Notes under the pieces: model-generated
Told to the model about the DNA's origin: nothing
Seen by the model: the letters and a program-made list of their open reading frames with translations, nothing else
Database searches by the model: none
Translations under genes and position numbers: made by a program
Assembly (NCBI GenBank): GCA_050011565.1
Contig: JBEKIW010000003.1
Coordinates: forward strand, 128,001-192,000
DNA from: Dehalococcoidia bacterium
GTDB lineage: Bacteria > Chloroflexota > Dehalococcoidia > GIF9 > UBA5629
Direction of reading: 5' to 3'
Length of the DNA stretch: 64,000 nt
Shown here: piece after piece, positions 1 through 15,166 of the stretch
Position numbering within the stretch: position 1 is the stretch's first letter
How the letters are laid out: each line of letters opens with the position of its first letter

Positions 1-1208
1 GTCAGCGGAGTAATTTTGCCGCTAACTATCTGGAGAACTCGATTAAATTTGTCAAGCCTGTTATCACCGGGTGTGTAACTTACAGCACCATGAAGTCCGG
101 CAACATCGTAGTTCTGCAGCTTTTGTATGCCCTGGGTCTCCACGGCCTGCCAGGCTGCGGCATCGCCTTTGGCCAGCGTGTCATAGCCGACGTTCTTCAC
201 CGCCAGCTCCAGAGCCTTGGCCACAATCAGACCCTGTGCCCACGAGACCATATAGTCAGCATTACCTACATTCTCGGGGTGATACTGCTGGCAATATTCC
301 ACCATCTTGGCCATGCCCGGCACATTATCTCCCCACTGCACCGTTGGATATACACCATAAACGCCTTCGACGACATCGGCACCACCCAAATCAATCAGAG
401 CTTTGGTCATGCCAGCATGGCAGCAACCGATGGTTACGCCCGGATACATGCCCAGGTCTCTGGCATTCTTGATAATAACCGCGGTCGGCGCCGGTGTACT
501 GGAAATATACAGTACGTCCGGGGTCAAGCCTTTAACTCGCGTTAGCGTATCCATTTCAGAGGTCGTGGTCGCCGCATGCTCATCCATGGAGACGACCTCA
601 ATGCCCAGTTCGTCAGCCTTGGCCTTGAAGGCATCTCGAGCCCCGTATCCCGTGGGATTGTTAAGCATAAGTAGTGCAAATTTAGGCTTGCCCGTACCCT
701 TCCAGATGTTCTTCATGTAGTAGTTAGCGAAAACTATAGCGTCATCGCCATAGTCAGGTGTTTGGCCGTAGATATGCGCTGGCGGCCGGTACAACGAAGG
801 CGAGCTGAAGCAGGAAATGCCCGGGAATCCCGCCTCGTTGGCAGCCCCCTTAGCGGGTGACATCTCGGCAGAAGCCGCCGTGGTAAATAACAGACAGCCA
901 CTAGACATGAATCCATTAACGATGGTGACCACTTTAGTAGGGTCGTAGTTGCTATCTAGAATTGTAGCCTCAATCGGGTATCCGCCGGCGCCGCCCAGTT
1001 CGGTATTAATGTATTTAATAACGTCGGTGTTACCGTTCATCATGGGAAGCCCCTTCTCAGCGGCTTTACCCGTAGAGGGGTTCATCATACCGATTTTCAA
1101 TACCTGTCCGGGTTGAGCTTTAGGGGCACAAGCACCGGCAAAGGGCATCACCGCTATTACCAGCGCCAAGCATAAAACTCCAATTACCATTAACGATTTT
1201 TTAGTCAA
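1..1208 (-). CDS. ABC transporter substrate-binding lipoprotein, LivK/Peripla_BP_6 family (runs off the window start)
   Basis: Not in the ORF track. Read by hand from TTG at 1208 after AGGAGG: MTKKSLMVIGVLCLALVIAVMPFAGACAPKAQPGQVLKIGMM. Lipobox AGAC; lies downstream of livH/livM-like permeases. Confidence 0.85.
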   Translation of the reverse strand, partial: MTKKSLMVIGVLCLALVIAVMPFAGACAPKAQPGQVLKIGMMNPSTGKAAEKGLPMMNGNTDVIKYINTELGGAGGYPIEATILDSNYDPTKVVTIVNGFMSSGCLLFTTAASAEMSPAKGAANEAGFPGISCFSSPSLYRPPAHIYGQTPDYGDDAIVFANYYMKNIWKGTGKPKFALLMLNNPTGYGARDAFKAKADELGIEVVSMDEHAATTTSEMDTLTRVKGLTPDVLYISSTPAPTAVIIKNARDLGMYPGVTIGCCHAGMTKALIDLGGADVVEGVYGVYPTVQWGDNVPGMAKMVEYCQQYHPENVGNADYMVSWAQGLIVAKALELAVKNVGYDTLAKGDAAAWQAVETQGIQKLQNYDVAGLHGAVSYTPGDNRLDKFNRVLQIVSGKITPL

Positions 1209-1279
1209 AGCATTAACCTCCTAAAAATATTTTACGCCCGGTAACTATTTATAAACATTACATCTTCATGCCTCCTCGT

Positions 1280-2329
1280 TTAATATGAGAACGGCCACAG
1301 ACGGTAAGCGGCCTTGAATAGTGCCCAGCGATGCGCCAGCCCCCGTGGCTCCAGAATTAGAAACAATATGATGGCCAGGCCGAACACCATCGGCCCCAGG
1401 CCGGTAGTAAAGCCGGTCGACAGCGAGGGTATGGCGTTTTCAATGAATGGAGATATATAAATAACCACCTGCTGCAGAAGTCGTATAACCACCACACCCA
1501 GAATAGGACCGATGGTCGTGCCCAGTCCGCCGATAATCACCATACCTATATACAGTATAGAGTCGGTTAGTGTAAAGTTCTCGGCATTCAAAAAGCCGGT
1601 CCAGTGTGCGAGCAGGGCACCGGCAATTCCAGCCAGAAAACAGCCGATGAAGAAAGCCAGAAGCTTGTAGTAAAGCAGATTGATACCCATTACTTCAGCC
1701 GCCAGGTCGTTATCCCTGACGGCAATAAAGGCTCTGCCCACCCTGCCCCTGGCCAGATTTTTAGCCAGAAATATACACAGCGCCACAATGACCATAATCA
1801 GGTAGAACTGGCTGGCTTGACTTCTAAACACGAAACCGAAAATAGAGGCACGGGGAACGTCCATGCCCACAAAGCCGCCGGTTACCGACCAGTGGTTGAT
1901 AATCCAGATGATGATAAATTGAGCGGCAATGGTGGTAATCGCCAGATAAAAACCTTTAACCCGCACCGACGGCAAGCCGAAGATAATACCTATCAGCCCG
2001 GCACTGAAACCGGAACAAATAAGTCCAGCTAAGAATGGAAGGCCAAGCCTGCTGGTCAAAATTGCTGTAGTATAGGCACCTACCGCCATAAAACCGGCAT
2101 GCCCGATGGATAGCTGTCCGCAGTAGCCGATAAGTATATTCAAACCGGTAACAGCGATTATAGTAATCCCTATTAAGTTGAATATGCCCAGCCAGTTATC
2201 ACGTAAATACAACGGCGCGGTAAAAACAAGGATTAAAAATCCGATAAAAAATGCCCAGTGAGTCTTGGTCCGCAGGACGGCCATGTCCCTGGCGTAATCG
2301 TAATTACGCGTACCGCTGGGTAAATCCAT
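1280..2329 (-). CDS. livM: Branched-chain amino acid-type ABC permease (LivM-like)
   Basis: GLNILIGYCGQLSIGHAGF, GFYLAITT, GRAFIAVRDNDLAAEVMGIN motifs. Confidence 0.9.
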   Translation of the reverse strand: MDLPSGTRNYDYARDMAVLRTKTHWAFFIGFLILVFTAPLYLRDNWLGIFNLIGITIIAVTGLNILIGYCGQLSIGHAGFMAVGAYTTAILTSRLGLPFLAGLICSGFSAGLIGIIFGLPSVRVKGFYLAITTIAAQFIIIWIINHWSVTGGFVGMDVPRASIFGFVFRSQASQFYLIMVIVALCIFLAKNLARGRVGRAFIAVRDNDLAAEVMGINLLYYKLLAFFIGCFLAGIAGALLAHWTGFLNAENFTLTDSILYIGMVIIGGLGTTIGPILGVVVIRLLQQVVIYISPFIENAIPSLSTGFTTGLGPMVFGLAIILFLILEPRGLAHRWALFKAAYRLWPFSY

Positions 2330-2332
2330 TAC

Positions 2333-3217
2333 TTATATCCTCTCTATCCGCGTCTCGCCGAAAAGCCCGTAAGGCTTGATAATCATGACGATTATTATAA
2401 TGATGAACGGAATAATATCTTTAATCCCCGGCCCGATCAGCGGCGTGAGATAGCCGCCGCCAAAGTTTTCGCACAACCCTATTATCGGTCCGGCCACCAT
2501 GCAGCCGATAAATGAATCCAGGCCGCCCAGTATCACCACCGAGAACGATTTCAGCCCGGTCTCCACCAGCCCAAAGGTGACGCCACCAATGCTGGAGACG
2601 AGCACACCACCGATAGCTGCCACCACGCAGGCAAAAATCCACGATATTGAAAAAACGCTGGTCACCGGAATAGCGCATGCCTGTACCGCCATCTGGTCGT
2701 CAGCGGTCGCCCTCATGGCTATACCCATCTTGTGGTATTTAAAAAACAAGGATAGAAGGCCAAACAGCGCTAGAGATATGACCGCCGCCCACATATATTC
2801 CTGAGAAACTACTGCCGGACCGATATGAATCGGCTGCTGGGGGAAAAGACGAGGCAAACGAGCGACGCTTACGGGCCAGACAAAAGTAACCAGGCCTTCA
2901 AGAAAATAGGCCACACCCAGCGTTACCGTAATCAACGCCAATATCGGTTGAGCAATCAGCGGACGTAAGGTGAATCGCTCTATAGCCCAGCCCAGGAATA
3001 CGGCAAAGACAATAGTCAGCGGCAGTCCGACCCAGTAGGGAAACTTGGCCTGCACCAGCATACCGTAGGTAAACCATGAGGAAATCAAAACGAGCTGCCC
3101 CAGTGCCAGGTTAGCCACGCTGCTGGACTTCCATATTAAGGCAAAACCCAGGGCGATAAGCGCATAAACCATGCCCACTGCTAAACCCGTAATAGTATAT
3201 TGAAGCAGTTCAGCCAT
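2333..3217 (-). CDS. livH: Branched-chain amino acid-type ABC permease (LivH-like)
   Basis: GMVYALIALGF, GIAMRATADD, VVILGGLDS, KPYGLFG motifs. Confidence 0.9.
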   Translation of the reverse strand: MAELLQYTITGLAVGMVYALIALGFALIWKSSSVANLALGQLVLISSWFTYGMLVQAKFPYWVGLPLTIVFAVFLGWAIERFTLRPLIAQPILALITVTLGVAYFLEGLVTFVWPVSVARLPRLFPQQPIHIGPAVVSQEYMWAAVISLALFGLLSLFFKYHKMGIAMRATADDQMAVQACAIPVTSVFSISWIFACVVAAIGGVLVSSIGGVTFGLVETGLKSFSVVILGGLDSFIGCMVAGPIIGLCENFGGGYLTPLIGPGIKDIIPFIIIIIVMIIKPYGLFGETRIERI

Positions 3218-5434
3218 TTAATTCACCTGCCTGACGTTGATAGCCGTGCTGACCACACCGTGTCTACCGTCTCTGTATGTCACGGGTGCCTCGACAGTCA
3301 CGTTCTTTTTATCTCCGTACATTGCCTCAATCAAGTCCTTATACCGCTGTTCCACAAAGTCCCGGCGCAGTTTTCTGGTCCTGGTAAGCTCGGCTTCATC
3401 GGCGTCGAACTCCTTATGCAGCAGGACGAATTTCCTGACTCTGGAACCCTCCGGCAAATAGCTGTTCACGCGGATTAAGTCCTTCTGTACCAGATCGGCA
3501 ACTTCTTTTTTCTGGGACAGGTCGACGAAAGTGGTATACGGAAGACCGTGACGCTCTGCCCATTTGCCCACCATGGCGAAATCTATATTGACTATGGCGC
3601 CAACGAAGCCTCTCTCCTTGCCACCCACAACCATGGCATCTTTTATGTAGGGACTGAACCTGAGCCTGCCCTCGATATACTGAGGTGCATACTTCGTGCC
3701 GGAAGCCAGCTCACCCATGTGTTCCACGCGGTCCATGAATATCAGGTGTCCCTGGTCATTGATGTTAACCGCGTCGCCTGTCCGGCACCAGCCGTTTACT
3801 ACCACCGCCACCGTCTTCTCCGGGTCCTTAAAGTATTCTTTGAAAAGACATTCACTTCTGACCAGCAGTTCTCCTTCATCGGTCACTCTAACTTCCACGC
3901 CTGATGCCGGCCGGCCCACGCTCTGAAAATCAATCTCCCCTTTGCCGTGAGAGGAGATAAAGCCGGCTTCGGTACTGGCATAGTTCTGTCTCAGTTCAAT
4001 GCCAATGGCATGTATTAAGCGGAAGGTATCCAGGCTGAGCACCGAGCTGCCGGTAACGGCCAGTCTGGCTTTAACCAACCCCAGCCTATCCTTCAGTGGT
4101 CTAAAAAGCAATGCGTACGCTAATCCGTACAGCGTCCGCCAGAACAAGTCCGGTGTCTTGCTTTCGAAGCTCAGGTCGGCCATCTTATAGCCTACCGGCA
4201 TAAACAGGTTATAAAAGAAGCGCTTTATGGGGTTGGCATCGGTTATTTTCACCTGGATTTCGCTGACCAGGCTCTCCCATTGACGAGGCCCGTAGATAAC
4301 AAAGTCGGGGCCGACCTCCCGCGTATCCTCGGCAATTGTCTCCGGCTCCTCGGGAAAGTTAATCCTGGCGCCGGTCAGCAAATGGGGTACGGTAGCAAAA
4401 AAGCTGTCGCCCACCCAGGCCGGCGGGAAGTTAGAGACCAAATCATCGTTGCCCGTAAACGGAAAACGGTCAACAAATCCCCGAGAGGTATTTATCAGCG
4501 CTTTATGGGTAATCACCGCCCCTTTGGGCAAACCGGTAGTACCGGAGGTATAGTAAATAAAGGCGGTGTCACTACCTTTCCCCTTCTTCACATTCTGCTC
4601 GAATAATTTCGGATGCTTTTTTTCGTATTCCTTGCCCTGATCAACAACGTCGACAAAATTCAGTAAGAACGCCGTTGGCCATAATCCCTCTTTTAAAAAG
4701 AGTATCGCATCTTCGATAAGCTTCTCATCGTCAGGCGTAAGAATTATCTTATCAGGATGACCGTCAGGCCTTTTAATGGTGATGTTTTCGCGACTCATTT
4801 TTTCAAATATAGGTATAAACTCATTGAGTTGGCTGCGTATTTTCTCTTTATGGATTTCAACGTTCTTTAGTTCTTTGACTCGGGAAAGCCTTTCGATCTG
4901 TTCGTGGCTAATGGGGAAATTTAAACTATCCTCGCATTTTAGCAATAGATCACACATTTTATTAACAAATTCATTTTTGGCAATTGGCAAAGTCTCTGGA
5001 TAATTTTTCAGCCCCTTCGGGTCCCAGTAAATCACTTTCTTCAGCGAAGGCAGTTCCTCCTTTATCTCAAGGAATTTATCGGTCTGCTCCTGGTCATTGA
5101 CAATGGCGAATTTGGCACCCGCGTGAGCGGCGACGTATTTCACTTCGGAAGGTATGGCGTCGACGAAAATGCCGGTGGCGATACCGCCAGCGGCTTGGGC
5201 TGCAAACTCTCCCCAGAACCATTCCGGCTCATTGTCGCCGATGATGCAGACCACGTCTCCGGGCTTAAAGCCCAGGCTTATCAAGCCCAAAGAGAAGGAT
5301 TTCACATTTTCGTAATATTCTTTCCAGCTATATCGCCGCCAGATGCCGCGGTGCTTCATGGACATGGCAGTCCTCTGACCCCACTTCTCGCAGTTGCTCT
5401 TTATCAGTTGCGGTATCGTCTCGCTATCAGCCAT
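3218..5434 (-). CDS. AMP-forming acyl-CoA ligase (long-chain FACS-like family) with an internal insertion of about 110 aa
   Basis: YTSGTTGLPKG AMP-binding signature, YASTE, GWCRTGD, ELTRTRKLRR. Confidence 0.9.
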   Translation of the reverse strand: MADSETIPQLIKSNCEKWGQRTAMSMKHRGIWRRYSWKEYYENVKSFSLGLISLGFKPGDVVCIIGDNEPEWFWGEFAAQAAGGIATGIFVDAIPSEVKYVAAHAGAKFAIVNDQEQTDKFLEIKEELPSLKKVIYWDPKGLKNYPETLPIAKNEFVNKMCDLLLKCEDSLNFPISHEQIERLSRVKELKNVEIHKEKIRSQLNEFIPIFEKMSRENITIKRPDGHPDKIILTPDDEKLIEDAILFLKEGLWPTAFLLNFVDVVDQGKEYEKKHPKLFEQNVKKGKGSDTAFIYYTSGTTGLPKGAVITHKALINTSRGFVDRFPFTGNDDLVSNFPPAWVGDSFFATVPHLLTGARINFPEEPETIAEDTREVGPDFVIYGPRQWESLVSEIQVKITDANPIKRFFYNLFMPVGYKMADLSFESKTPDLFWRTLYGLAYALLFRPLKDRLGLVKARLAVTGSSVLSLDTFRLIHAIGIELRQNYASTEAGFISSHGKGEIDFQSVGRPASGVEVRVTDEGELLVRSECLFKEYFKDPEKTVAVVVNGWCRTGDAVNINDQGHLIFMDRVEHMGELASGTKYAPQYIEGRLRFSPYIKDAMVVGGKERGFVGAIVNIDFAMVGKWAERHGLPYTTFVDLSQKKEVADLVQKDLIRVNSYLPEGSRVRKFVLLHKEFDADEAELTRTRKLRRDFVEQRYKDLIEAMYGDKKNVTVEAPVTYRDGRHGVVSTAINVRQVN

Positions 5435-5462
5435 AGCCTAATGCCTTAATCTGCCCCTTAAC

Positions 5463-5490
5463 AAAAAAGCCTCCCGCCTGGGAGGCTTTT
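5463..5490 (-). terminator. Attenuator terminator hairpin upstream of the acyl-CoA ligase
   Basis: Minus strand AAAAGCCTCCC-AGGC-GGGAGGCTTTTTTGTT, about 30 nt before the start codon. Confidence 0.9.
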
Positions 5491-5523
5491 ACTTTCTGTT
5501 TTATCTTATTCCTGCTCTATGGT

Positions 5524-5610
5524 TTAGTTCGATGTGCTCCCAGGCGCAACGGCAGGCAGGCTAAAGAAAAAGAAGAAAAATAAATTAAAACTGCGAGCCT
5601 GAGTCTGCAT
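5524..5610 (-). CDS. Phe-rich leader (attenuator) peptide MQTQARSFNLFFFFFFSLPAVAPGSTSN
   Basis: 28 codons with 6 consecutive Phe plus 1 more; sits between a promoter and a terminator; contains a 10-nt antiterminator complement. Confidence 0.85.
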   Translation of the reverse strand: MQTQARSFNLFFFFFFSLPAVAPGSTSN

Positions 5611-5630
5611 TTCGAACTTCACGAAACGAG

Positions 5631-5659
5631 ATAGTATCATAACAGATTCAGCCTGTCAA
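5631..5659 (-). promoter_or_regulatory. Sigma70-type promoter of the Phe leader
   Basis: TTGACA-17 nt-TACTAT with TG extension. Confidence 0.75.
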
Positions 5660-9007: not shown

Positions 9008-9145
9008 CTACATACACCTCCCCACCGACTCAGCAATAAGCTTAAGCTCAGCCATCACACCGGTTCTTGCCGATTTCGGTCAGTAGCGCGTTGTTCTCCA
9101 TATTCCTGGCTCCGACCTGAAGTATATCGGCGCATTCTGCTACCC
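9008..9145 (-). pseudogene. Internally deleted remnant of a second DAHP synthase gene
   Basis: 9012-9057 matches the aroF 3' end (about 9597-9642); 9058-9140 matches aroF at about 10002-10085. Confidence 0.8.
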
Positions 9146-9244
9146 GGATAAACTCAGCTTAAAGGTACACTTTTGTTCATATTTTATTGAAACCTTGATG
9201 GAGAGTGCTACAATGGATACAGCAATAAAAGCAAGGAGGTTATC

Positions 9245-9466: not shown

Positions 9467-9592
9467 TTATAATCCGGTAAGCTGCTAGACCCTCTATACG
9501 ACTAATAGTTTATGATGATTTCAGGTCAGGTGGCCTGCGAAGTAATTGCAGCCTGTTGCTACCTGAGAAGTTCTGTTTTTGTGACCGGCCAG

Positions 9593-10609
9593 CTAAATAT
9601 ACCTCCCCACCGCCTCGGCAATGAGCTTAAGCTCGGTCATCAACCGGGCAAAGTCCGACGGTGTCAGCGATTGGAGGCCATCCACCAGGGCTTCCTTGGG
9701 GTTGGGATGGGCTTCGATGAGGAGACCGTCGGCACCGGCGGCTATAGCCGCTTTAGCCAGCGCGGGCACCAGAGAATAATGTCCGGCGGCGTGGCTGGGG
9801 TCGACAACTAAAGGCAAGTGGCTGGATTTCTTTATCACGGGAATCGAGCCGATATCCAGAGAAAAACGAGTGCTGTCCTCGAAGGTCCTGATGCCCCTCT
9901 CACATAAAATAACCCGGTCATTGCCACCAGCCAATAAATAGTCGGCGGCGGTAAGCCATTCGGTAACCGTAGCCGATAAGCCCCGCTTAAGTAGAACAGG
10001 GCACCGGCTCTTACCGATTTCGGTCAGTAGCGCATAGTTCTGCATATTCCTGGCTCCGACCTGGAGTATGTCAGCATACTGCGATACCCTGTCGACATCA
10101 TGAGGTGCCACCACCTCAGTGATTACAGGCATGCCGAATTGCTGCTTGGTCTGCTGTAACATCTTTAGACCGGCCTCCTCCAGACCTTGAAAGGCAAAAG
10201 GTGAGGTGCGCGGTTTATAGGCGCCGCCTCGTAGAATGCAGGCTCCAGCCTCCTTAACCATCATGGCTGCCGCCATGAGCTGTTTCTCGCCTTCGACGGC
10301 ACAGGGGCCGGCCATGACCACAATGCGCTTGCCGCCGATTTGAACCCCGTTGACGGAAACTACGGTGTTCTCCGGTTTGAACTCGCGGGCACTGAGCTTG
10401 TACGGCTTCATAATCCTGGTCACGCTCTCCACACCGGGGAGAACGGCAAAGATGTCAATAGGCAGCTGGCCGGTATTGGGTCCCAGCAAAGCGACGACCA
10501 CCTTGTTGGTGCCCAGATTCAACTGGACGCCCAGCCCTAGCTCCTTGGCCCGCTGCACGACGTCGTCTACTTCTGCTTGAGGAGCGCCGGTTCTCATTTC
10601 AACTATCAT
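9593..10609 (-). CDS. aroF: DAHP synthase, type I-beta with N-terminal ferredoxin-like regulatory domain
   Basis: AGPCAVE, RGGAYKPRTSP, QVGARNMQN, LCERGIRTF, VDPSHAAG. Confidence 0.95.
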   Translation of the reverse strand: MIVEMRTGAPQAEVDDVVQRAKELGLGVQLNLGTNKVVVALLGPNTGQLPIDIFAVLPGVESVTRIMKPYKLSAREFKPENTVVSVNGVQIGGKRIVVMAGPCAVEGEKQLMAAAMMVKEAGACILRGGAYKPRTSPFAFQGLEEAGLKMLQQTKQQFGMPVITEVVAPHDVDRVSQYADILQVGARNMQNYALLTEIGKSRCPVLLKRGLSATVTEWLTAADYLLAGGNDRVILCERGIRTFEDSTRFSLDIGSIPVIKKSSHLPLVVDPSHAAGHYSLVPALAKAAIAAGADGLLIEAHPNPKEALVDGLQSLTPSDFARLMTELKLIAEAVGRYI

Positions 10610-10634
10610 GATTGTAACTCCTTAATTTTTTTCA

Positions 10635-10670
10635 CCCTCACCCTGACCCTCTCCCCTCAAGGGAGAGGGA
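10635..10670. repeat. REP-like palindrome CCCTCACCCTGACCCTCTCCC-CTCAA-GGGAGAGGG
   Basis: CCCTCTCCC/GGGAGAGGG stem located inside the aroF 5' UTR. Confidence 0.7.
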
Positions 10671-10676
10671 ACATTT

Positions 10677-10709
10677 AAAAACAGAAAGCCTCCCGCGGGG
10701 CGGGAGGCT
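10677..10709 (-). terminator. Attenuator terminator upstream of aroF
   Basis: Minus strand AGCCTCCCGC-CCC-GCGGGAGGCT-TTCTGTTTTT. Confidence 0.85.
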
Positions 10710-10740
10710 CTTTTTGCCTTAGATATTTTGCTGCTGTTTT

Positions 10741-10830
10741 TTAGGTCGATGCCATCCCAGACCCGCGCCGAGGCGTGCTAAACCAAAAGCCAAAGAAAAA
10801 CCAGCTATAGCTGCGAGTCAGGTTATGCAT
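10741..10830 (-). CDS. Aromatic-rich leader peptide MHNLTRSYSWFFFGFWFSTPRRGSGMAST
   Basis: 29 codons; 8 aromatic residues (Y, 2 W, 5 F) in a 10-codon stretch; lies between a promoter and a terminator upstream of aroF. Confidence 0.88.
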   Translation of the reverse strand: MHNLTRSYSWFFFGFWFSTPRRGSGMAST

Positions 10831-10849
10831 TTCGACCATGGTGTTTAGA

Positions 10850-10879
10850 ATGATAGCAATAAATGTTGAACGTTGTCAA
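10850..10879 (-). promoter_or_regulatory. Sigma70-type promoter of the aroF leader
   Basis: TTGACA-18 nt-TATCAT with TG extension. Confidence 0.75.
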
Positions 10880-10928
10880 CCAGATCAGGGTCCGTCTAAT
10901 ATGGATAAAAGTTTAAATCCTAAATTAG

Positions 10929-11088
10929 AAAATCCCTCTCAATCTCCCTTTACGAAAGGGAGAGGTTAGTTGCTAGCTTTGCGAAAGGGAGAAGCTGGTT
11001 TTTGCCCGTTGCTACTCTCCCCCTTAGAAAAAGGGGGATTAAGGGGGATTTAAAATCACTCTCAGTCTCTCCTTACGAAAGGGAGAGG
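10929..11088. repeat. Cluster of REP-like palindromes (AAATCCCTCTCAATCTCCCTTT-acg-AAAGGGAGA family) in both orientations
   Basis: About four related units; same family as 15254-15328. Confidence 0.75.
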
Positions 11089-11119
11089 TCCCATCAATCC
11101 AGGAGGAAAAGGAGCAATA

Positions 11120-11575
11120 CTAGACCAGGGGAATTGTGGTGCCGGTGGCTTTGGCGATGAGCTTGCCGTCCTGGTTGGTCACCATCATCTCGGAGATGCA
11201 GACCCGCCTGCCGGCCCTGACCACACGGCATTCGGCGATAAGCTCGTCTTTCACATCGGCGCTGGCGACAAAATGGATGTTGAACTGCGAGGCTACGTTA
11301 GGAGTGATTACGGAGTTGGTGCCGTAGGCGAAAGCCTGGTCAGCCACAGCCATGATAATGCCGCCGAAGACCAGGTTATTGAAGTTAAGGTATTCGGGCT
11401 TAAGCTTCGCCGATACTCTGGCATAGCCCTCGGATAACTCCAGCAACTTTATGTCTAAAAATTTGGCGATAGGCTCACTACCGGCTTTTGCCTTCAAGGC
11501 TGCTACATTGTCAGAGGCATTGGCGCCCACAGCGGCATTTGCTCCGGGTTTTTGTTTATCAGTTTTCTTATCCAT
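11120..11575 (-). CDS. PaaI family hotdog thioesterase
   Basis: FLDIKLLELSEGYARV...LNFNNLVFGGIIMAVADQAFAY; the usual HGG appears as FGG. Confidence 0.85.
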   Translation of the reverse strand: MDKKTDKQKPGANAAVGANASDNVAALKAKAGSEPIAKFLDIKLLELSEGYARVSAKLKPEYLNFNNLVFGGIIMAVADQAFAYGTNSVITPNVASQFNIHFVASADVKDELIAECRVVRAGRRVCISEMMVTNQDGKLIAKATGTTIPLV

Positions 11576-11581
11576 AATATA

Positions 11582-12769
11582 TTAACGCAAGCCAAATTTT
11601 TTGGCTGCTTTTTTGAAGCCGTCCAGAGAACCTTTTAAGGTCTTGTCATCAACGCAGTACGAAATGCGAAAATAGCCCGGTGTGCCGAAGCCCCGCCCCG
11701 GCACCACCAGCACATTCCACTGCCGCAGCTCGTTGACAAAGGCAACGTCATCCTCTACCGGCGACTTAGGAAACATGTAGAAAGCACCATGCGGCTTTAC
11801 CACCGAGTAGCCCAGGTCAACAAGATTGCCATAAAGAAAATCCCTCTTCTTTTGATAATCGGCTATAGAGACGGTGACATGCTGCAGGTTCTTCACCAGG
11901 TGCTGCATCAACGCCGGTGCATTGACAAATCCCAAAATCCGGGTGCAGAAAATAAAGCCGTTGACCAGCTCATCATGCTGGCTGCAATCCGGATGTATGG
12001 CGATATAACCAATGCGCTCACCAGGTAGCGCCAGGTCTTTGGAATGGGAATGAACAACTATGGTGTGGCGGTGGTGATGGAAAACAGGCGGGTATGGCAA
12101 CCCGTCAAATATGATTTTGCGATATGCCTCGTCGCTTATAAGATAAATCTGCTTGTCGTTTTGAGCCTCTTTTCGACGCAGCAGCTCGCCTAATTGCATC
12201 ACCAGGTCCCGGCTGTAGACCGCGCCGGTCGGGTTATTAGGAGAATTGATAATGACGGCTTTTGTCTTGGTCGAAATGGCGGCTTCAAGGGAATCCAGCT
12301 TCGGCACAAATTGCTCATTCGTGGGCAAGACCTTGATAACTCCACCGTGATTATCTATGTAGTTGCCGAATTCCATGAAGTAAGGAGCGAACACAATCAC
12401 CTCGTCTCCGGGATTCAGTATTGTCTTCAATACCACATTCAAGCCGCCGGCAGCGCCGCAGGTCATGACAATATCGTTGCCGCAGAATTTAATGCCGGTC
12501 TCGTGCGAGAGCTGTACGGCAACGGCGGCTCGTGTGTCTGCATAACCGGCATTCTCCATATATCTGTGCATACCCGGCACAGGTTTTTTCATCAGCTTCT
12601 TCAATTCCTGGTTAAACTCAGGCGGCGGCTCCATGACCGGATTCCCCAGGGACAGGTCGAAAACATCCTTCTCACCGTATCGCTTTTTGAGATTAGCCCC
12701 TTCCTCGAACATCCTCCGTATCCACGACCCCTCCATCATGCGTTTGCTGACATTATCTGACACCGGCAC
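11582..12769 (-). CDS. Class I/II PLP-dependent aminotransferase (aspartate/aromatic type)
   Basis: NSPNNPTG, SDEAY, SHSKDLALPGERIGY. Confidence 0.9.
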   Translation of the reverse strand: MPVSDNVSKRMMEGSWIRRMFEEGANLKKRYGEKDVFDLSLGNPVMEPPPEFNQELKKLMKKPVPGMHRYMENAGYADTRAAVAVQLSHETGIKFCGNDIVMTCGAAGGLNVVLKTILNPGDEVIVFAPYFMEFGNYIDNHGGVIKVLPTNEQFVPKLDSLEAAISTKTKAVIINSPNNPTGAVYSRDLVMQLGELLRRKEAQNDKQIYLISDEAYRKIIFDGLPYPPVFHHHRHTIVVHSHSKDLALPGERIGYIAIHPDCSQHDELVNGFIFCTRILGFVNAPALMQHLVKNLQHVTVSIADYQKKRDFLYGNLVDLGYSVVKPHGAFYMFPKSPVEDDVAFVNELRQWNVLVVPGRGFGTPGYFRISYCVDDKTLKGSLDGFKKAAKKFGLR

Positions 12770-13352
12770 GAGACATCTCCTCCCTGCCTTTATCGAAGGC
12801 GACCATGTTCATTTTTAGAATGTTGGGTGACAGCCGTTGAGAAATGCAGTCTTTCCAAACATCAATGCCAATGGGCAGAAACGAAGATAAACAGCCCAGC
12901 ATAATCATATTCAGCGTCCTGATATCGCCCAGTTCCTTAGCCTGGCGGGTGCCATCAACGAAGTAAAAACGCTCAGCCCACTGCCGCAATATGCCCTCTA
13001 TCTCCTTATCGCCCGGGTACCGCTGGGTCCCTAGGCTCACCGACAATGGCGGCGTCGACTGATTATTGACAATGGAGGCACCGCCCTCGTGTAAATAGTA
13101 GCTCCACCTGGCTGCCTCCAATTTCTCGAAAGCGACCAGTATATCGACCTCGCCTTCTTTGATTAAAGGCGACCACACCTTATCAGATATACGAACATGA
13201 CTGACGACGCTGCCGCCTCGCTGTGCCATACCCAACGTATCCGTTTTCTTGACATCATAACCGGCAGCCAGTGCCACCTCACCCAGTATATCGCTGGCCA
13301 GAACTATACCCTGCCCGCCTACGCCCACCATAAGCAAGTCCTGCTTTTTCAC
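12753..13352 (-). CDS. iorB: Indolepyruvate:ferredoxin oxidoreductase beta subunit
   Basis: VGVGGQG, GMAQRGGSVVSHVR; likely GTG start at 13352 overlapping the iorA stop. Confidence 0.92.
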   Translation of the reverse strand: MKKQDLLMVGVGGQGIVLASDILGEVALAAGYDVKKTDTLGMAQRGGSVVSHVRISDKVWSPLIKEGEVDILVAFEKLEAARWSYYLHEGGASIVNNQSTPPLSVSLGTQRYPGDKEIEGILRQWAERFYFVDGTRQAKELGDIRTLNMIMLGCLSSFLPIGIDVWKDCISQRLSPNILKMNMVAFDKGREEMSRAGVR

Positions 13353-15166
13353 TTCGACTCTCCGACAGCAGTCAATGGGCCTATTGCCTTTTTGGGGCAG
13401 AGCTGCTCGCAGATGGTACAGGCAGCACCAGCACACAGCGCGGCATCGATGTAAATCTGCTCATCCAGATTTTGTATTGCCGGACAGCCGATTCTCAGGC
13501 ACGTCTCGCAGTCGTCGCATTTTTCTATATCAACAGCTCTTTGGCCGGAGCGCTTTCGCAGCCGTACCGAGCAAGCTCCGCGGACTATTATGACAGACAG
13601 CTCAGGGTTATCCAGCGAACTTCTCACCGCCGCTCTAAGAGCTTTCATATCAAAGGCGTCAACTACCTTGACGTCGTTAACTCCGACGCCTTTAACCAGC
13701 CGCTCCAGCTCAACCATCCGGGTCTTTTTGCCCTTGGCTGAAACTCCCGTTCCGGGATGGTCCTGGTGTCCGGTCATAGCCGTAGTGCCGTTATCCAGTA
13801 TGATAATCGTCACTCCCGATTTGTTGTAGACGGCATCGACCACGCCGGTAATACCGGAATGGAGGAACGTGGAGTCGCCGATAACAGCCACCACCTTGCC
13901 CTCAACGCCGGCCTTCTCCATTCCCAGAGCCTGACCGATGCCCGCACCCATACAGGCGGTAGTATCCATAGCGCGCAGCGGCGGATAGGTAGCCAGCGTA
14001 TAGCAGCCGATATCGCCGGTGATAATCAACTTCCCTTGCTCTTCCGACTTGCCTCTGGCATCCAGCAGCTTGGACCTCTGGCCTATGGTGTTAAGCACAA
14101 AGAATATGCCGGCATGCGGACAACCGCCGCACAGGACGGGGGGCCGTCCCGGTAATCCCTGCGGCAGCGGCACCTGCCTGCGTGAAGGCTTGGCTAATAG
14201 TCCAGCACGGTAACCGGCTGCCTCGACAATGCCCGGATTCAACTCACCGATTCTGGGGATGAACTCCTTTCCCGTCACCTTTATACCCATGGCCAGTATA
14301 TTTTCCTCCAGGAATGGGTCGAGCTCTTCAATAACGATTAGCCTGTCCACCTGTGCGGCGAACTCTTGGAGTAACTTCCGCGGCAGCGGATAGGTCATGC
14401 CCAGCTTAAGAAAAGAAGCCCTGGGAAATGCCTCTCTGGCGTACTGGTAGGCAACGCCGCTGCTGACCACACCGAGGTGGCATTCTCCCTTGATTATCTG
14501 GTTGCCGGGAAAGGTATCGGCATAGGCAGTAAGCTTGACCAGGCGCTGCTCGACGACCGGCCTCCGGAGACGGACATGAACTGGCAGCATGACATATTTC
14601 TCTACATCGTGCTTGAAGCTGGCTGGATTTGCCGGCGCCACCCGGCTCCGGTTCGTCTCCACCACGGACTTGGAATGAGAAATGCGGGTGCTGGAGCGCA
14701 CCAGCACCGGCGTATCGAACCGCTCACTGAGTTCAAAGGCAACAGCCATCAATTCATAGGCTTCCTGGCTGTCGCTGGGCTCAAGCATGGGCACCTTAGC
14801 CAGTTTGGCATAGTGGCGCGTGTCCTGCTCGTTCTGGGTGCTGAAGACACCAGGGTCATCGGCTACAATCACCACCAGTCCACCATTAATGCCGGTTATA
14901 GATGCCGCCATAAAAGGATCACTGGCTACATTCAGTCCCACCTGCTTCATGGATACCAGAGCTCGAACTCCAGCATAAGCGGCTCCCATGCCCAGCTCCA
15001 TAGCCACCTTCTCATTCGTCGACCACTCCGCGTAGACATCGTCAAAGCGGGCTATCGATTCAAGTATTTCGGTGCTGGGCGTACCGGGATAGGCTGCTGC
15101 CACCATAACGCCGGCATGATAGGCTCCGAGGGCAAAGGCTTCGTTTCCGGAGAGCAGTTTTTTCAT
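13349..15166 (-). CDS. iorA: Indolepyruvate:ferredoxin oxidoreductase alpha subunit
   Basis: LLSGNEA, YPGTPSTE, GDIGCY, GDSTFLHSG TPP motif, C-terminal 2x[4Fe-4S]. Confidence 0.95.
   Translation of the reverse strand: MKKLLSGNEAFALGAYHAGVMVAAAYPGTPSTEILESIARFDDVYAEWSTNEKVAMELGMGAAYAGVRALVSMKQVGLNVASDPFMAASITGINGGLVVIVADDPGVFSTQNEQDTRHYAKLAKVPMLEPSDSQEAYELMAVAFELSERFDTPVLVRSSTRISHSKSVVETNRSRVAPANPASFKHDVEKYVMLPVHVRLRRPVVEQRLVKLTAYADTFPGNQIIKGECHLGVVSSGVAYQYAREAFPRASFLKLGMTYPLPRKLLQEFAAQVDRLIVIEELDPFLEENILAMGIKVTGKEFIPRIGELNPGIVEAAGYRAGLLAKPSRRQVPLPQGLPGRPPVLCGGCPHAGIFFVLNTIGQRSKLLDARGKSEEQGKLIITGDIGCYTLATYPPLRAMDTTACMGAGIGQALGMEKAGVEGKVVAVIGDSTFLHSGITGVVDAVYNKSGVTIIILDNGTTAMTGHQDHPGTGVSAKGKKTRMVELERLVKGVGVNDVKVVDAFDMKALRAAVRSSLDNPELSVIIVRGACSVRLRKRSGQRAVDIEKCDDCETCLRIGCPAIQNLDEQIYIDAALCAGAACTICEQLCPKKAIGPLTAVGESK

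What the first reader, a model, noticed from the sequence alone, without database searches (positions are those of the whole stretch)
10677..10879. Attenuator for DAHP synthase with Tyr, Trp and Phe control codons in one leader
Seen: a promoter, the leader MHNLTRSYSWFFFGFWFSTPRRGSGMAST (10830-10741; Y-S-W-F-F-F-G-F-W-F), a terminator at 10709-10677, and then aroF. The leader segment CGCGGG-tct-GGGA can pair with TCCC-gc-CCCGCG of the terminator. DAHP synthase is the first committed shikimate step shared by all three aromatic amino acids, so a leader carrying all three codon types fits the logic. The classical multi-amino-acid attenuators are thr and ilv. I do not know of a characterised Phe/Trp/Tyr leader on a DAHP synthase gene, but cannot search to confirm novelty.
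Basis: partly seen in the sequence, partly recalled or inferred. Interest (0 to 1): 0.85.

Follow-up and report, generated by a model that had tools for sequence, protein, structure and literature searches.

The report
Aromatic leader-peptide attenuator before DAHP synthase
A short upstream reading frame packed with Tyr, Trp and Phe codons, followed by a terminator, most likely switches a Dehalococcoidia DAHP synthase gene on when aromatic amino acids run short; the mechanism is a textbook one, found here in a new bacterial group.

Summary

The element is conserved. A covariance model built from 13 orthologous leaders finds it in 38 of 77 genomes of the family, and also elsewhere in the class.
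- Across 35 DAHPS-linked leaders, 34 carry Tyr or Trp besides Phe, and 26 carry all three.
- A sister leader on the same RNA scaffold (one copy at window 5453-5624) precedes an AMP-ligase/Liv-type transporter operon. It carries almost pure Phe runs in 24 of 24 cases.
- C residues in the pyrimidine tract fall at codon position 3 (125, against 7 and 10 at positions 1 and 2).
- ORF lengths differ only by multiples of three.
- The 1:2 helix, a start-codon-sequestering helix and the terminator all covary.
- The antiterminator is complementary and energetically competitive, but shows no covariation.

Best reading: a classical ribosome-mediated transcription attenuator (confidence 0.85). That all three amino acids are sensed is less sure (about 0.6).

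It is not categorically new. Corynebacterium aroR (Phe-Tyr-Phe) and the Acholeplasma uORFC-13-1 motif already precede aroF. This is a new member, in Chloroflexota. There are no expression data.

The parts
10850..10879 (-). Sigma-70-type promoter: TTGACA, 18-nt spacer, TG-extended TATCAT. The inferred transcript start is near 10843.
   Evidence: 11 of 12 matches. TTGACA and a TG-n-TAtcAT-like -10 can be read in the upstream sequences of all 13 leader-bearing orthologous loci (by eye). The start site is an inference.
10741..10830 (-). Leader ORF, 29 codons plus stop: MHNLTRSYSWFFFGFWFSTPRRGSGMAST. An alternative in-frame ATG lies at 10839.
   Evidence: The aligned ATG and the aligned stop are kept in frame in 38 of the 53 alignment rows of at least 140 nt that were tested. 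The 38 ORF lengths run from 72 to 93 nt and all are multiples of 3.
10780..10809 (-). Control codons: Tyr8, Trp10, Phe11-13, Phe15, Trp16 and Phe17.
   Evidence: codon list; top 1 of 14,509 sORFs for aromatic density; composition across 35 DAHPS-linked leaders; third-position periodicity of C.
10827..10837 (-). 5' strand of helix P1. It covers the weak Shine-Dalgarno region and the conserved AUG, and pairs with 10744-10752.
   Evidence: 86.6% of cells paired across 43 sequences, and 5 of 9 pairs show changes on both sides.
10813..10822 (-). Segment 1 (CC-u-GACUCGC, codons 3-6). It pairs with segment 2 when no ribosome is stalled.
   Evidence: 88.3% of cells paired, and 4 of 9 pairs show changes on both sides.
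10751..10767 (-). Segment 2 (CGCGGGUCUGGGAUGGC, inside the ORF). It pairs either with segment 1 or with the terminator's 5' arm and loop, forming the antiterminator.
   Evidence: 13 standard pairs; forms in truncated-transcript folds with the ribosome at codon 10; 90% and 81% paired, no covariation.
10744..10752 (-). 3' strand of helix P1, ending just before the stop codon at 10743-10741.
10674..10711 (-). Intrinsic terminator: segments 3:4, stem 10711-10685, then a U-rich tail.
   Evidence: (93.7% of cells paired; 5 of 12 pairs change on both sides); hairpin about -22 kcal/mol.
10647..10669 (-). Small G+C-rich hairpin element (CCCTCTCCC-ttga-GGGGAGAGGG), followed by a GGGTGAGGGTG tail. It lies between the terminator and the aroF ribosome-binding site. 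It probably does not belong to the switch.
   Evidence: Read. Similar copies lie between the terminator and aroF in some relatives and are missing in others. Three copies of the tail motif occur in the genome.
9593..10609 (-). Regulated gene: 338-aa DAHP synthase with an N-terminal ferredoxin-like domain.
5453..5659 (-). Sister attenuator on the same scaffold. Promoter 5659-5631. Leader ORF 5610-5524 (MQTQARSFNLFFFFFFSLPAVAPGSTSN, Phe only). Terminator about 5490-5462. Followed by the AMP-binding gene 5434-3218 and Liv-type permease and binding-protein genes.
   Evidence: (model R1, 93.5 bits, E = 3e-19). The terminator scan listed this hairpin on the + strand only. Its - strand reading rests on the sequence and on the model match.

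Best explanation
This is a classical ribosome-mediated (leader-peptide) transcription attenuator controlling one of three DAHP synthase isozymes of a Dehalococcoidia bacterium.

Proposed mechanism. Transcription starts a few bases after the -10 box, and a ribosome loads on the leader AUG (10830) while the polymerase moves on.
- With charged Tyr-, Trp- and Phe-tRNA in supply, the ribosome runs through the aromatic cluster, over segment 2, to the stop codon at 10743-10741. Segment 2 is then covered, the 3:4 hairpin forms, and transcription ends at the U tract before aroF.
- If any of these tRNAs is poorly charged, the ribosome stalls between codons 8 and 17. This keeps segment 1 from pairing with segment 2. 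Segment 2 then pairs with the 5' arm and loop of the terminator as soon as these emerge. The terminator cannot form and aroF is transcribed.
- Without any translation, helices 1:2 and P1 form and termination follows. P1 also buries the leader's own start codon.

Shown by computation: all sequence parts, their conservation, the coding constraint on the sORF, covariation in P1, 1:2 and the terminator, and a competitive antiterminator.
Inferred: translation of the sORF, stalling, the kinetic order of folding, and the response to each single amino acid.
For: Anatomy: promoter, sORF, terminator and gene are in the right order.

Conservation: model R1 (built from 13 leaders) matches in 38 of 77 genomes of the family, 43 of 151 in a sample of the order and 9 of 151 in a sample of the class. 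All three counts include the window's own genome, G000.

Gene association: of 51 primary matches, 25 lie before DAHPS genes and 24 before an AMP-binding/Liv-type operon. Ten further DAHPS-linked leaders came from weaker or more distant matches.

Codon logic:
- DAHPS-linked leaders, 35 from 35 genomes: Phe 35, Tyr 30, Trp 30, Tyr or Trp 34, all three 26.
- AMP-ligase-linked leaders, 24 from 22 genomes: Phe 24, Tyr 3, Trp 4, all three 0. Mean Phe count is 7.2 against 3.7.

Coding constraint:
- In the aromatic core of 44 leaders, C falls at codon positions 1/2/3 of pyrimidine-only codons 7/10/125 times. Codon counts are TTT 132, TTC 119 and all others 13.
- Lengths from the aligned ATG to the aligned stop are 72-93 nt, all multiples of 3, in the 38 of 53 tested rows that keep the frame.

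Structure:
- On an independent MAFFT alignment of 43 leaders, the terminator-form structure is 89.8% paired, against at most 52.9% when partners are slid. Fourteen pairs and 74 cells change on both sides. None of 500 shuffles reaches the covariation score (the 13-sequence set is).
- Truncated-transcript folds switch from 1:2 to 2:3 when a ribosome is placed at codon 10, in most of the 13 leaders.
- The segment 2 x terminator-arm duplex has a median of -21.0 kcal/mol, against -13.2 for shuffled segment 2. It beats the shuffles at p <= 0.05 in 33 of 43. The median terminator hairpin is -21.8.

Rarity: the leader ranks first of 14,509 genomic sORFs for aromatic density.
Against: - There are no expression or termination data. 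No RNA run was listed for this stretch.
- The antiterminator has no covariation support: 0 pairs change on both sides in 13 sequences, and 3 pairs do in 43 sequences, a level reached by 36 of 500 shuffles. It rests on conserved complementarity alone.
- In equilibrium folds of the full leader, the terminator survives wherever the ribosome is placed. The switch therefore works only if folding is kinetic, as in the textbook cases.
- In the folds, a ribosome at codons 13 or 16 still allows 1:2 to form around it in most leaders. Only stalls at the early codons (Tyr8, Trp10, Phe11) clearly release segment 2, unless steric exclusion or queued ribosomes help.
- The Shine-Dalgarno match in the window's own copy is weak (ATGGTCGAA, where relatives have GAAGGTCGAA).
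- Ten of 25 orthologous DAHPS genes have no such leader.
- Nine of 35 DAHPS-linked leaders lack Tyr or Trp, and one (G022) is Phe-only.
- The genomes are related, so these counts overstate the number of independent events.
Confidence: 0.85

Rival explanations
1. It is a real leader-peptide attenuator, but it senses only Phe in practice (or Phe plus one other). On this view the Tyr and Trp codons are tolerated neighbours and not working sensors.
For: Phe codons dominate the window's leader (5 Phe, 2 Trp, 1 Tyr). In C. glutamicum aroR (Phe-Tyr-Phe), Phe limitation raised expression while Tyr availability had no effect, according to the review PMC11802643 (passage read). Nine of 35 DAHPS-linked leaders lack Tyr or Trp.
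Against: Tyr or Trp is kept in 34 of 35 DAHPS-linked leaders even though the surrounding peptide sequence diverges strongly. Examples are YSWFFFGFWF, YSYYYFYF, VWFGFWF and YFAYYFWWY. These residues are nearly absent from the Phe runs of the sister leaders on the same scaffold. Some DAHPS-linked leaders have more Tyr than Phe (G016, G035, G095, G025). In the window, Tyr8 and Trp10 sit closest to segment 1, which is where a stall most clearly frees segment 2 in the folds.
Confidence: 0.25
2. The conserved RNA is a ligand- or protein-binding leader (a riboswitch-like or TRAP-like attenuator). On this view the open frame is incidental.
For: The RNA has conserved helices with covariation and a terminator, as riboswitches do. 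The same genome uses T-box leaders for other amino-acid genes.
Against: The third-position periodicity of C in the U-rich tract (125 against 7 and 10) and the frame-preserving length changes are signatures of translation, not of an RNA aptamer. The variable part is exactly the codon cluster, and it changes with the downstream gene. No Rfam family reaches its gathering score. The best leader-type match is Phe_leader at 21 bits against a threshold of 55, and there is no T-box match here. No TRAP (PF02081) gene was found in the 99.2%-complete genome, while the B. subtilis control was found.
Confidence: 0.04
3. The sORF encodes a small hydrophobic peptide with a function of its own, and the hairpin is an ordinary terminator of that small gene.
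For: The peptide is conserved in length and has a conserved C-terminal part (P-x-G-x-G-R-A-L-T-like).
Against: The conserved C-terminal codons coincide with segment 2 and the P1 3' strand, which covary as RNA. The aromatic core varies freely in order and length while keeping only its composition. The element always sits directly upstream, on the same strand, of an amino-acid-related gene. The peptide has no start-proximal signal-like or membrane-spanning stretch of ordinary length (29 aa).
Confidence: 0.03

Closest known systems
Corynebacterium glutamicum aroR leader upstream of aroF (Mentz et al. 2013, PMC4046766; Neshat et al. 2014, as cited in PMC11802643)
   Same: A short leader peptide with mixed aromatic codons directly upstream of a DAHP synthase gene. 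It works by ribosome-mediated transcription attenuation and responds to aromatic amino-acid limitation.
   Different: aroR has only Phe-Tyr-Phe and no Trp, and is from Actinobacteria. Tyr was reported to have no effect. The leader here has 8 aromatic codons of three kinds, belongs to a Dehalococcoidia-wide RNA scaffold and adds a start-codon-sequestering helix. Sequence relatedness could not be tested because no aroR sequence was on hand. The primary paper (Neshat 2014) was not seen.
uORFC-13-1 motif upstream of aroF in Acholeplasma (Brewer et al. 2021, PMC8632094, section 26 read)
   Same: A predicted uORF with promoter, RBS, Phe codons and an adjacent intrinsic terminator, found only before DAHP synthase genes.
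   Different: It is from Mollicutes and has a U run coding for 'at least one' Phe, with no Tyr/Trp logic described. It is a computational prediction only. No match to any such model was found here. Whether that motif is in Rfam 15 is not known to me.
Enterobacterial pheL-pheA / pheST leaders (Rfam RF01859 Phe_leader)
   Same: A run of Phe codons in a short leader ORF, with alternative 1:2, 2:3 and 3:4 hairpins and an intrinsic terminator.
   Different: The covariance-model score is 21 bits on the correct strand against a gathering score of 55. An equally weak 23.6-bit match on the wrong strand is driven by the terminator. The regulated gene, the phylum and the control codon set (Tyr and Trp added) are all different.
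Multivalent attenuators thr (Thr+Ile) and ilvGMEDA (Leu/Val/Ile) of E. coli (recalled textbook knowledge, not checked in a call)
   Same: One leader peptide carries codons for several end products of a shared pathway, so shortage of any one relieves termination.
   Different: Different amino acids and genes, and no sequence relation. In this case the shared step is the first committed step of the shikimate pathway.
T-box leaders (Rfam RF00230), used in the same genome before the trp operon
   Same: They also sense tRNA charging and decide between a terminator and an antiterminator in a 5' leader.
   Different: T-box RNA binds uncharged tRNA directly and needs no translation. The aroF leader gives no T-box match, whereas loci L038 and L039 of the same genome do (99.7 and 96.6 bits against a threshold of 93).

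Membership tests
Ribosome-mediated (leader-peptide) transcription attenuators | A short ORF with its own start and stop inside the 5' leader of a biosynthetic gene | tested here: met
   The frame from the aligned ATG to the aligned stop is kept in 38 of 53 tested alignment rows, with lengths of 72-93 nt that are all multiples of 3.
Ribosome-mediated (leader-peptide) transcription attenuators | A cluster of codons for the end-product amino acid(s) of the regulated pathway | tested here: met
   Eight of 10 consecutive residues are aromatic, which ranks first of 14,509 sORFs. The composition tracks the downstream gene.
Ribosome-mediated (leader-peptide) transcription attenuators | An intrinsic terminator between the sORF and the structural gene | tested here: met
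   (12-bp stem plus T run). The terminator covaries.
Ribosome-mediated (leader-peptide) transcription attenuators | An antiterminator (2:3) that excludes the terminator | tested here: inconclusive
   There are 13 possible pairs in the window. Pairing is 90.2% and 81.1% across relatives. The duplex beats shuffles in 33 of 43. It forms in truncated-transcript folds. There is no covariation, and it never wins at equilibrium.
Ribosome-mediated (leader-peptide) transcription attenuators | A 1:2 helix that holds segment 2 unless a ribosome stalls at the control codons | tested here: met
   The helix is present in the MFE fold. It is 88.3% paired with 4 covarying pairs. It is lost with the ribosome at codon 10 but not at codons 13 or 16 in the simple mask model.
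Ribosome-mediated (leader-peptide) transcription attenuators | The sORF is translated | not testable with these tools
   Indirect evidence only: third-position periodicity and frame-preserving indels. No RNA or ribosome-profiling data were available.
Ribosome-mediated (leader-peptide) transcription attenuators | Read-through rises when the cognate amino acid or charged tRNA is limiting | not testable with these tools
   This needs reporter, Term-seq or in vitro coupled assays.
Rfam Phe_leader (RF01859) | Covariance-model score at or above the gathering score (55 bits) | tested here: not met
   21 bits on the - strand and 23.6 bits on the wrong strand. Nothing reaches the gathering threshold.
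T-box leader (RF00230) | Covariance-model score at or above the gathering score (93 bits) | tested here: not met
   There is no match in the window. Two loci elsewhere in the same genome do match.
C. glutamicum aroR / Acholeplasma uORFC-13-1 | Sequence or model similarity to those leaders | not tested
   No sequence or model of either was available from a tool. The comparison is by described features only.
DAHP synthase, class I-beta type (Bacillus/Thermotoga-like; class name recalled) | DAHP_synth_1 catalytic domain with family-level scores above the curated cut-offs | tested here: met
   PF00793 at 254.9 bits (cut-off 25.5) and PF18152 FXD domain at 51.9 bits (cut-off 27). NF006421 at 467 bits (cut-off 335) and TIGR01361 at 383.5 bits (cut-off 267.75).

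The most novel reading that the evidence does not exclude
Dehalococcoidia may carry one ancient, modular attenuator chassis: a start-sequestering helix, a 1:2 helix, a GGGAGG-type segment 2 and a CCUCCC/GGGAGG terminator. Only the codon cassette is swapped to re-address it.
- A Tyr/Trp/Phe cassette precedes DAHP synthases of three different subtypes.
- Pure Phe precedes an acyl-CoA-ligase plus Liv-type ABC transporter operon.
- Tyr-rich cassettes precede a DctP-type binding protein.
- Aromatic cassettes precede a class I/II aminotransferase and a Liv-type binding protein.
- Ile/Leu/Val-rich cassettes precede acetolactate-synthase-like and class IV aminotransferase genes.

If this holds, leader codons could be read as substrate labels for otherwise unannotatable transporters and ligases in uncultured lineages. 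In this window, the Phe-only leader, together with the neighbouring iorAB, aminotransferase and PaaI-like thioesterase genes, would point to Phe salvage from an aryl acid such as phenylacetate by reductive carboxylation.
Probability: 0.45. Interest if true: 0.65.

Novelty: new member of a known kind. Interest (0 to 1): 0.48.

Why it matters
Gene regulation in Dehalococcoidia and other uncultured Chloroflexota is almost unknown. This is a clear, testable regulatory element that recurs across the class.

The two sister leaders form a natural codon-swap experiment: the same RNA scaffold carries Tyr/Trp/Phe before DAHP synthase and pure Phe before a ligase/transporter operon. That makes the attenuator reading unusually well supported without any bench work.

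It also shows a division of labour among the three DAHP synthase isozymes of this genome:
- one sits behind the tri-aromatic leader;
- one sits inside a T-box-controlled trp operon;
- one has no visible leader.
This recalls the three differently regulated isozymes of E. coli (recalled knowledge), reached here by RNA-based means.

In practice, leader codon content could help assign substrates to transporters and CoA ligases in metagenome-assembled genomes. The mechanism itself is textbook, so a specialist would be interested but not astonished.

Tried and rejected
- Rfam: the permissive scan of 10300-11300 gave only sub-threshold matches, among them Phe_leader at 21 bits and PyrG_leader at 20.6 bits. 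The gathering-threshold scan of the whole window found only a tRNA.
- Equilibrium folding of the full leader with a 30-nt ribosome mask at each of the 30 codons: the terminator persisted in every case. I therefore turned to truncated-transcript folds.
- Antiterminator covariation was sought twice and not found.
- Expression: no RNA holder was listed for window 9500-11000.
- A generic scan of the genome for other amino-acid-rich sORFs followed by a terminator gave 10 candidates. Only the two aromatic leaders were convincing. A third candidate with a strong hairpin (C2:321425) is the C-terminal membrane anchor of a longer ORF.
- TRAP-type control: no PF02081 gene in the genome.
- Literature: 'leader peptide', 'attenuator', 'Chloroflexi', 'Dehalococcoid' (at least 3 of 4 terms) returned 6 papers. 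None concerns such leaders, judging by titles and abstracts, plus passages of PMC4833913.
- The search for related loci on named genomes served only for taxonomy. Its 80 loci (L091-L170) were not screened for leaders.
- Not examined: the weak class-level matches in G293 and G281 (at most 35 bits), and the family- and order-level matches of at most about 35 bits for which no locus was fetched, such as G077, G013:C8, G054 and G145.
Full report
**What is there**

On the - strand the window reads, in order, as follows.
- A near-consensus promoter: TTGACA, 18 nt, TG-extended TATCAT, at 10879-10850, 11 of 12 matches.
- A short ORF at 10839-10741.
- An A-rich spacer.
- A 12-pair, G+C-rich hairpin at 10711-10685, followed by a T run.
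- A small extra hairpin element.
- After an AAGGAG ribosome site, a 338-aa gene at 10609-9593.

That gene is a DAHP synthase with an N-terminal ferredoxin-like domain (Pfam PF00793 and PF18152; NCBIfam NF006421, 467 bits against a cut-off of 335). From the conserved ATG the peptide is MHNLTRSYSWFFFGFWFSTPRRGSGMAST. Eight of its ten central residues are aromatic: 1 Tyr, 2 Trp and 5 Phe. Among 14,509 ATG-started sORFs of 15-60 aa in the genome, it is the only one that dense.

**Organism and paralogs**

The nearest named records for the enzyme are Dehalococcoidia and Dehalococcoidales MAGs, at 77% and 75% identity. The genome is 2.0 Mb and 99.2% complete, and it has three DAHP synthase paralogs:
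- the window's gene;
- a second copy at 54% identity with no leader;
- a third copy at 49% identity. It lies between trpF-like and trpB-like ORFs, in a trpE-to-trpA gene row that begins with a T-box leader (Rfam RF00230, 99.7 bits). The trp gene names are my reading of ORF order and of the N-terminal sequences.

**Conservation**

Of 25 orthologous genes (at least 73% identity) in 60 relatives, 13 have the same leader upstream. Two have too little upstream sequence to judge, and 10 have none.

I built a covariance model (R1) from the 13 leaders. All three counts below include G000.
- It matches 38 of 77 genomes of the family (15 of 32 high-quality ones).
- It matches 43 of 151 in a sample of the order (f1 33/72, f2 1/3, f3 0/2, f4 8/72, f5 0/1).
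- It matches 9 of 151 in a sample of the class.

Re-scoring 51 fetched loci gave 71 matches. I kept the 51 sense-strand primary matches. I dropped 20 antisense or overlapping matches that cover little more than the palindromic terminator.

Of the 51 kept, 25 lie directly upstream of DAHP synthase genes. These are both close orthologues and paralogs only 42-52% identical. Another 24 lie upstream of an AMP-binding gene that heads a Liv-type transporter operon. Two are other cases: one precedes a metallo-beta-lactamase-fold gene and one runs into a contig end.

Ten more DAHPS-linked leaders came from weaker or more distant matches. Five are from the order-level and family-level hits. Five are from other families of the class, where all five matches that I examined precede a DAHP synthase.

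**The sister leader and the codon logic**

The model's second-best hit in the window's own genome lies in the window itself, at 5453-5624 on the - strand (93.5 bits, E = 3e-19). It has its own promoter, the leader MQTQARSFNLFFFFFFSLPAVAPGSTSN and a terminator. These precede a 738-aa AMP-binding enzyme, two BPD_transp_2 permeases and a Peripla_BP_6 binding protein.

Across all leaders the codon content follows the downstream gene.
- The 35 DAHPS-linked leaders, from 35 genomes, have Phe in 35, Tyr in 30, Trp in 30, Tyr or Trp in 34, and all three in 26.
- The 24 ligase-linked leaders, from 22 genomes, have Phe in 24, Tyr in 3, Trp in 4, and never all three. Their mean Phe count is 7.2 against 3.7.

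The one Phe-only DAHPS leader (G022) is almost identical to the ligase leader about 1.8 kb downstream on the same contig. That looks like a recent copy.

The aromatic core is not conserved as a sequence (YSWFFFGFWF, YSYYYFYF, VWFGFWF, YFAYYFWWY and others), only as a composition. This is what one expects of control codons. One caveat applies: the genomes are related, and the two leader types may be two old lineages. The counts therefore show long maintenance and not many independent origins.

**Evidence that the frame is read**

Within the aromatic core of 44 distinct leaders, C in pyrimidine-only codons falls at codon positions 1, 2 and 3 in 7, 10 and 125 cases. The codon counts are TTT 132, TTC 119 and all other pyrimidine codons 13. 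A U-rich RNA tract under no coding constraint would not show that three-base periodicity.

I tested 53 alignment rows of at least 140 nt. In 38 of them the aligned ATG and the aligned stop are in frame with no internal stop. Seven different lengths occur, from 72 to 93 nt, and all are multiples of three. The 15 failures are weak or antisense rows, misaligned rows, or leaders whose stop lies a few codons earlier or later.

**RNA structure**

The minimum-energy fold of the leader (-62.1 kcal/mol, z = -3.24) has three helices.
- P1 pairs the start region (10837-10827) with the last codons (10752-10744).
- Helix 1:2 pairs codons 3-6 (10822-10813) with 10766-10757.
- The third helix is the terminator.

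On an independent MAFFT alignment of 43 leaders, this structure is 89.8% paired, against at most 52.9% when partners are slid by one to three columns. Fourteen pairs and 74 cells change on both sides, and none of 500 shuffles reaches the covariation score. The 13-sequence set gives 92.4% paired and 7 such pairs.

It extends to 13 standard pairs between 10767-10751 and 10708-10694. It is 90.2% and 81.1% paired across relatives but shows no significant covariation. Both strands serve two partners and hardly vary.

Its energy is competitive. The best duplex between the ORF's 3' part and the terminator's 5' arm has a median of -21.0 kcal/mol. Shuffled segments give -13.2, and the real duplex is better at p <= 0.05 in 33 of 43. 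The median terminator hairpin is -21.8.

**How it most likely works**

The layout is that of the trp, phe and his attenuators (recalled textbook model).
- Folding the transcript only up to the terminator loop gives 1:2 plus P1 when no ribosome is present.
- It gives 2:3 when a 30-nt ribosome mask is centred on codon 10. This holds in most of the 13 leaders.
- A ribosome that reaches the stop codon at 10743-10741 would cover the 3' half of segment 2, leaving 3:4 free to form. This step is an inference from footprint size.

Two weak points remain. With the full transcript at equilibrium the terminator always wins, so the switch must be kinetic. With the mask at codons 13 or 16, the simple model still lets 1:2 close around the ribosome. 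Stalls at Tyr8, Trp10 and Phe11 are thus the ones that most clearly release segment 2. Later stalls would need steric exclusion or a queued second ribosome. P1 buries the leader's own start codon once the leader is complete, which would limit later rounds of initiation (inference).

**Rivals**

- A translation-independent riboswitch or protein-binding leader is unlikely. The coding signatures argue against it, no Rfam family reaches threshold, and the genome has no TRAP gene.
- A free-standing micropeptide is unlikely. The conserved parts of the peptide coincide with covarying RNA helices, and the variable part keeps only its composition.
- The serious rival is a narrower one: the element may sense mainly Phe. 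In C. glutamicum aroR, Tyr availability reportedly had no effect (PMC11802643, passage read). The strong retention of Tyr and Trp in DAHPS-linked leaders, and only in those, argues for real multi-input sensing. Only experiments can settle it.

**Comparison with what is known**

Leader peptides before DAHP synthase genes are already in print.
- aroR (Phe-Tyr-Phe) lies before aroF in C. glutamicum. It was predicted in PMC4046766 and described as experimentally supported in the review PMC11802643, which cites Neshat et al. 2014. I read passages of both. I did not see the primary paper.
- The uORFC-13-1 motif lies before aroF in Acholeplasma (PMC8632094, section 26 read in full). That section also notes an old hypothesis of attenuation at E. 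coli aroF-tyrA.

I found no paper on such leaders in Chloroflexi or Dehalococcoidia in the searched library. The present element is not a member of Rfam Phe_leader (21 bits against 55) and not a T-box.

It is therefore a new family within a known kind. It differs in lineage, in carrying three aromatic codon types, in the start-sequestering helix, and in sharing its scaffold with leaders for other genes.

**Wider pattern (tentative)**

Weaker R1 matches in other families show the same design with other cassettes:
- a Tyr-rich leader before a DctP-type binding protein;
- a Tyr/Phe/Trp leader before a Liv-type binding protein;
- an aromatic leader before a class I/II aminotransferase;
- Ile/Leu/Val-rich leaders before an acetolactate-synthase-like gene and a class IV aminotransferase.

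These matches score only about 30-39 bits, and much of that comes from the terminator. Homology of the scaffold is therefore plausible but not shown.

**Limits**

Supplements of papers were not consulted. All mechanism beyond sequence, conservation and computed folds is inference.

Noticed in passing
window 3-5659 (- strand): A second attenuator on the same RNA scaffold, with a Phe-only leader (7 Phe in 28 aa). It heads an operon of a 738-aa AMP-binding (acyl-CoA-ligase-like) enzyme, two Liv-type permeases and a Peripla_BP_6 binding protein. The same arrangement recurs in 24 loci of 22 genomes. The Phe codons suggest that the operon imports or activates Phe or a Phe precursor.
   Followed up: partly
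window 11120-15166 (- strand): Directly upstream of the aroF leader lie indolepyruvate ferredoxin oxidoreductase alpha and beta subunits (both above the NCBIfam equivalog cut-offs), a PRK06836-type PLP aminotransferase and a PaaI-like hotdog thioesterase (below its cut-off). Together with the Phe-controlled CoA ligase and transporter, this looks like a route that makes aromatic amino acids from aryl acids by reductive carboxylation. That pathway is recalled from work on methanogens and rumen anaerobes and was not checked here.
   Followed up: partly
G000:C1:413694-421407 (outside the window; loci L003, L038): The third DAHP synthase paralog sits inside the trp operon, in the order trpE-G-D-C-F-DAHPS-trpB-A as read from the ORFs, behind a T-box leader (99.7 bits). 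A second T-box (L039, 96.6 bits) lies about 32 kb away. The specifier codons were not read.
   Followed up: partly
window 9054-9185 (- strand): A 44-residue stretch with 59% identity to residues 161-204 of the DAHP synthase, interrupted by TGA and TAA stops, lies about 400 nt downstream of aroF. It looks like a remnant of a second DAHPS copy.
   Followed up: no
window 10647-10669 and about 10930-11110: Several short G+C-rich hairpin repeats of the type CTCTCCC...GGGAGAG fill the intergenic DNA on both sides of the attenuator. One of them carries a GGGTGAGGGTG tail. Similar copies are inserted between the terminator and aroF in some relatives, which explains why that distance varies from about 20 to 195 nt. 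The weak 'microRNA' Rfam matches in this region are these hairpins.
   Followed up: partly
L172, L173, L171, L178, L182, L176 (genomes G116, G037, G133, G121): Other families of the same order have leaders of like design with other codon cassettes. YYYSYYY precedes a DctP binding protein. YYFGFYFW precedes a Liv-type binding protein. YYFF..W precedes a class I/II aminotransferase. Ile/Leu/Val-rich peptides precede an acetolactate-synthase-like gene and a class IV aminotransferase. A leader of unclear specificity precedes another class IV aminotransferase.
   Followed up: partly
L047 (G003) and L028/L049 (G007): In two relatives the leader is intact, but the DAHP synthase behind it looks broken. 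G003 has a 213-aa open frame matching residues 1-172. G007 has a frame interrupted by a stop after residue 261. These may be assembly errors or decaying genes.
   Followed up: no
L181 (G114:C19): One weak R1 match is only a terminator. By eye it belongs to a T-box-like leader (it has a GGGTGGCACCG motif) before a 454-aa ORF. It was not tested against Rfam.
   Followed up: no
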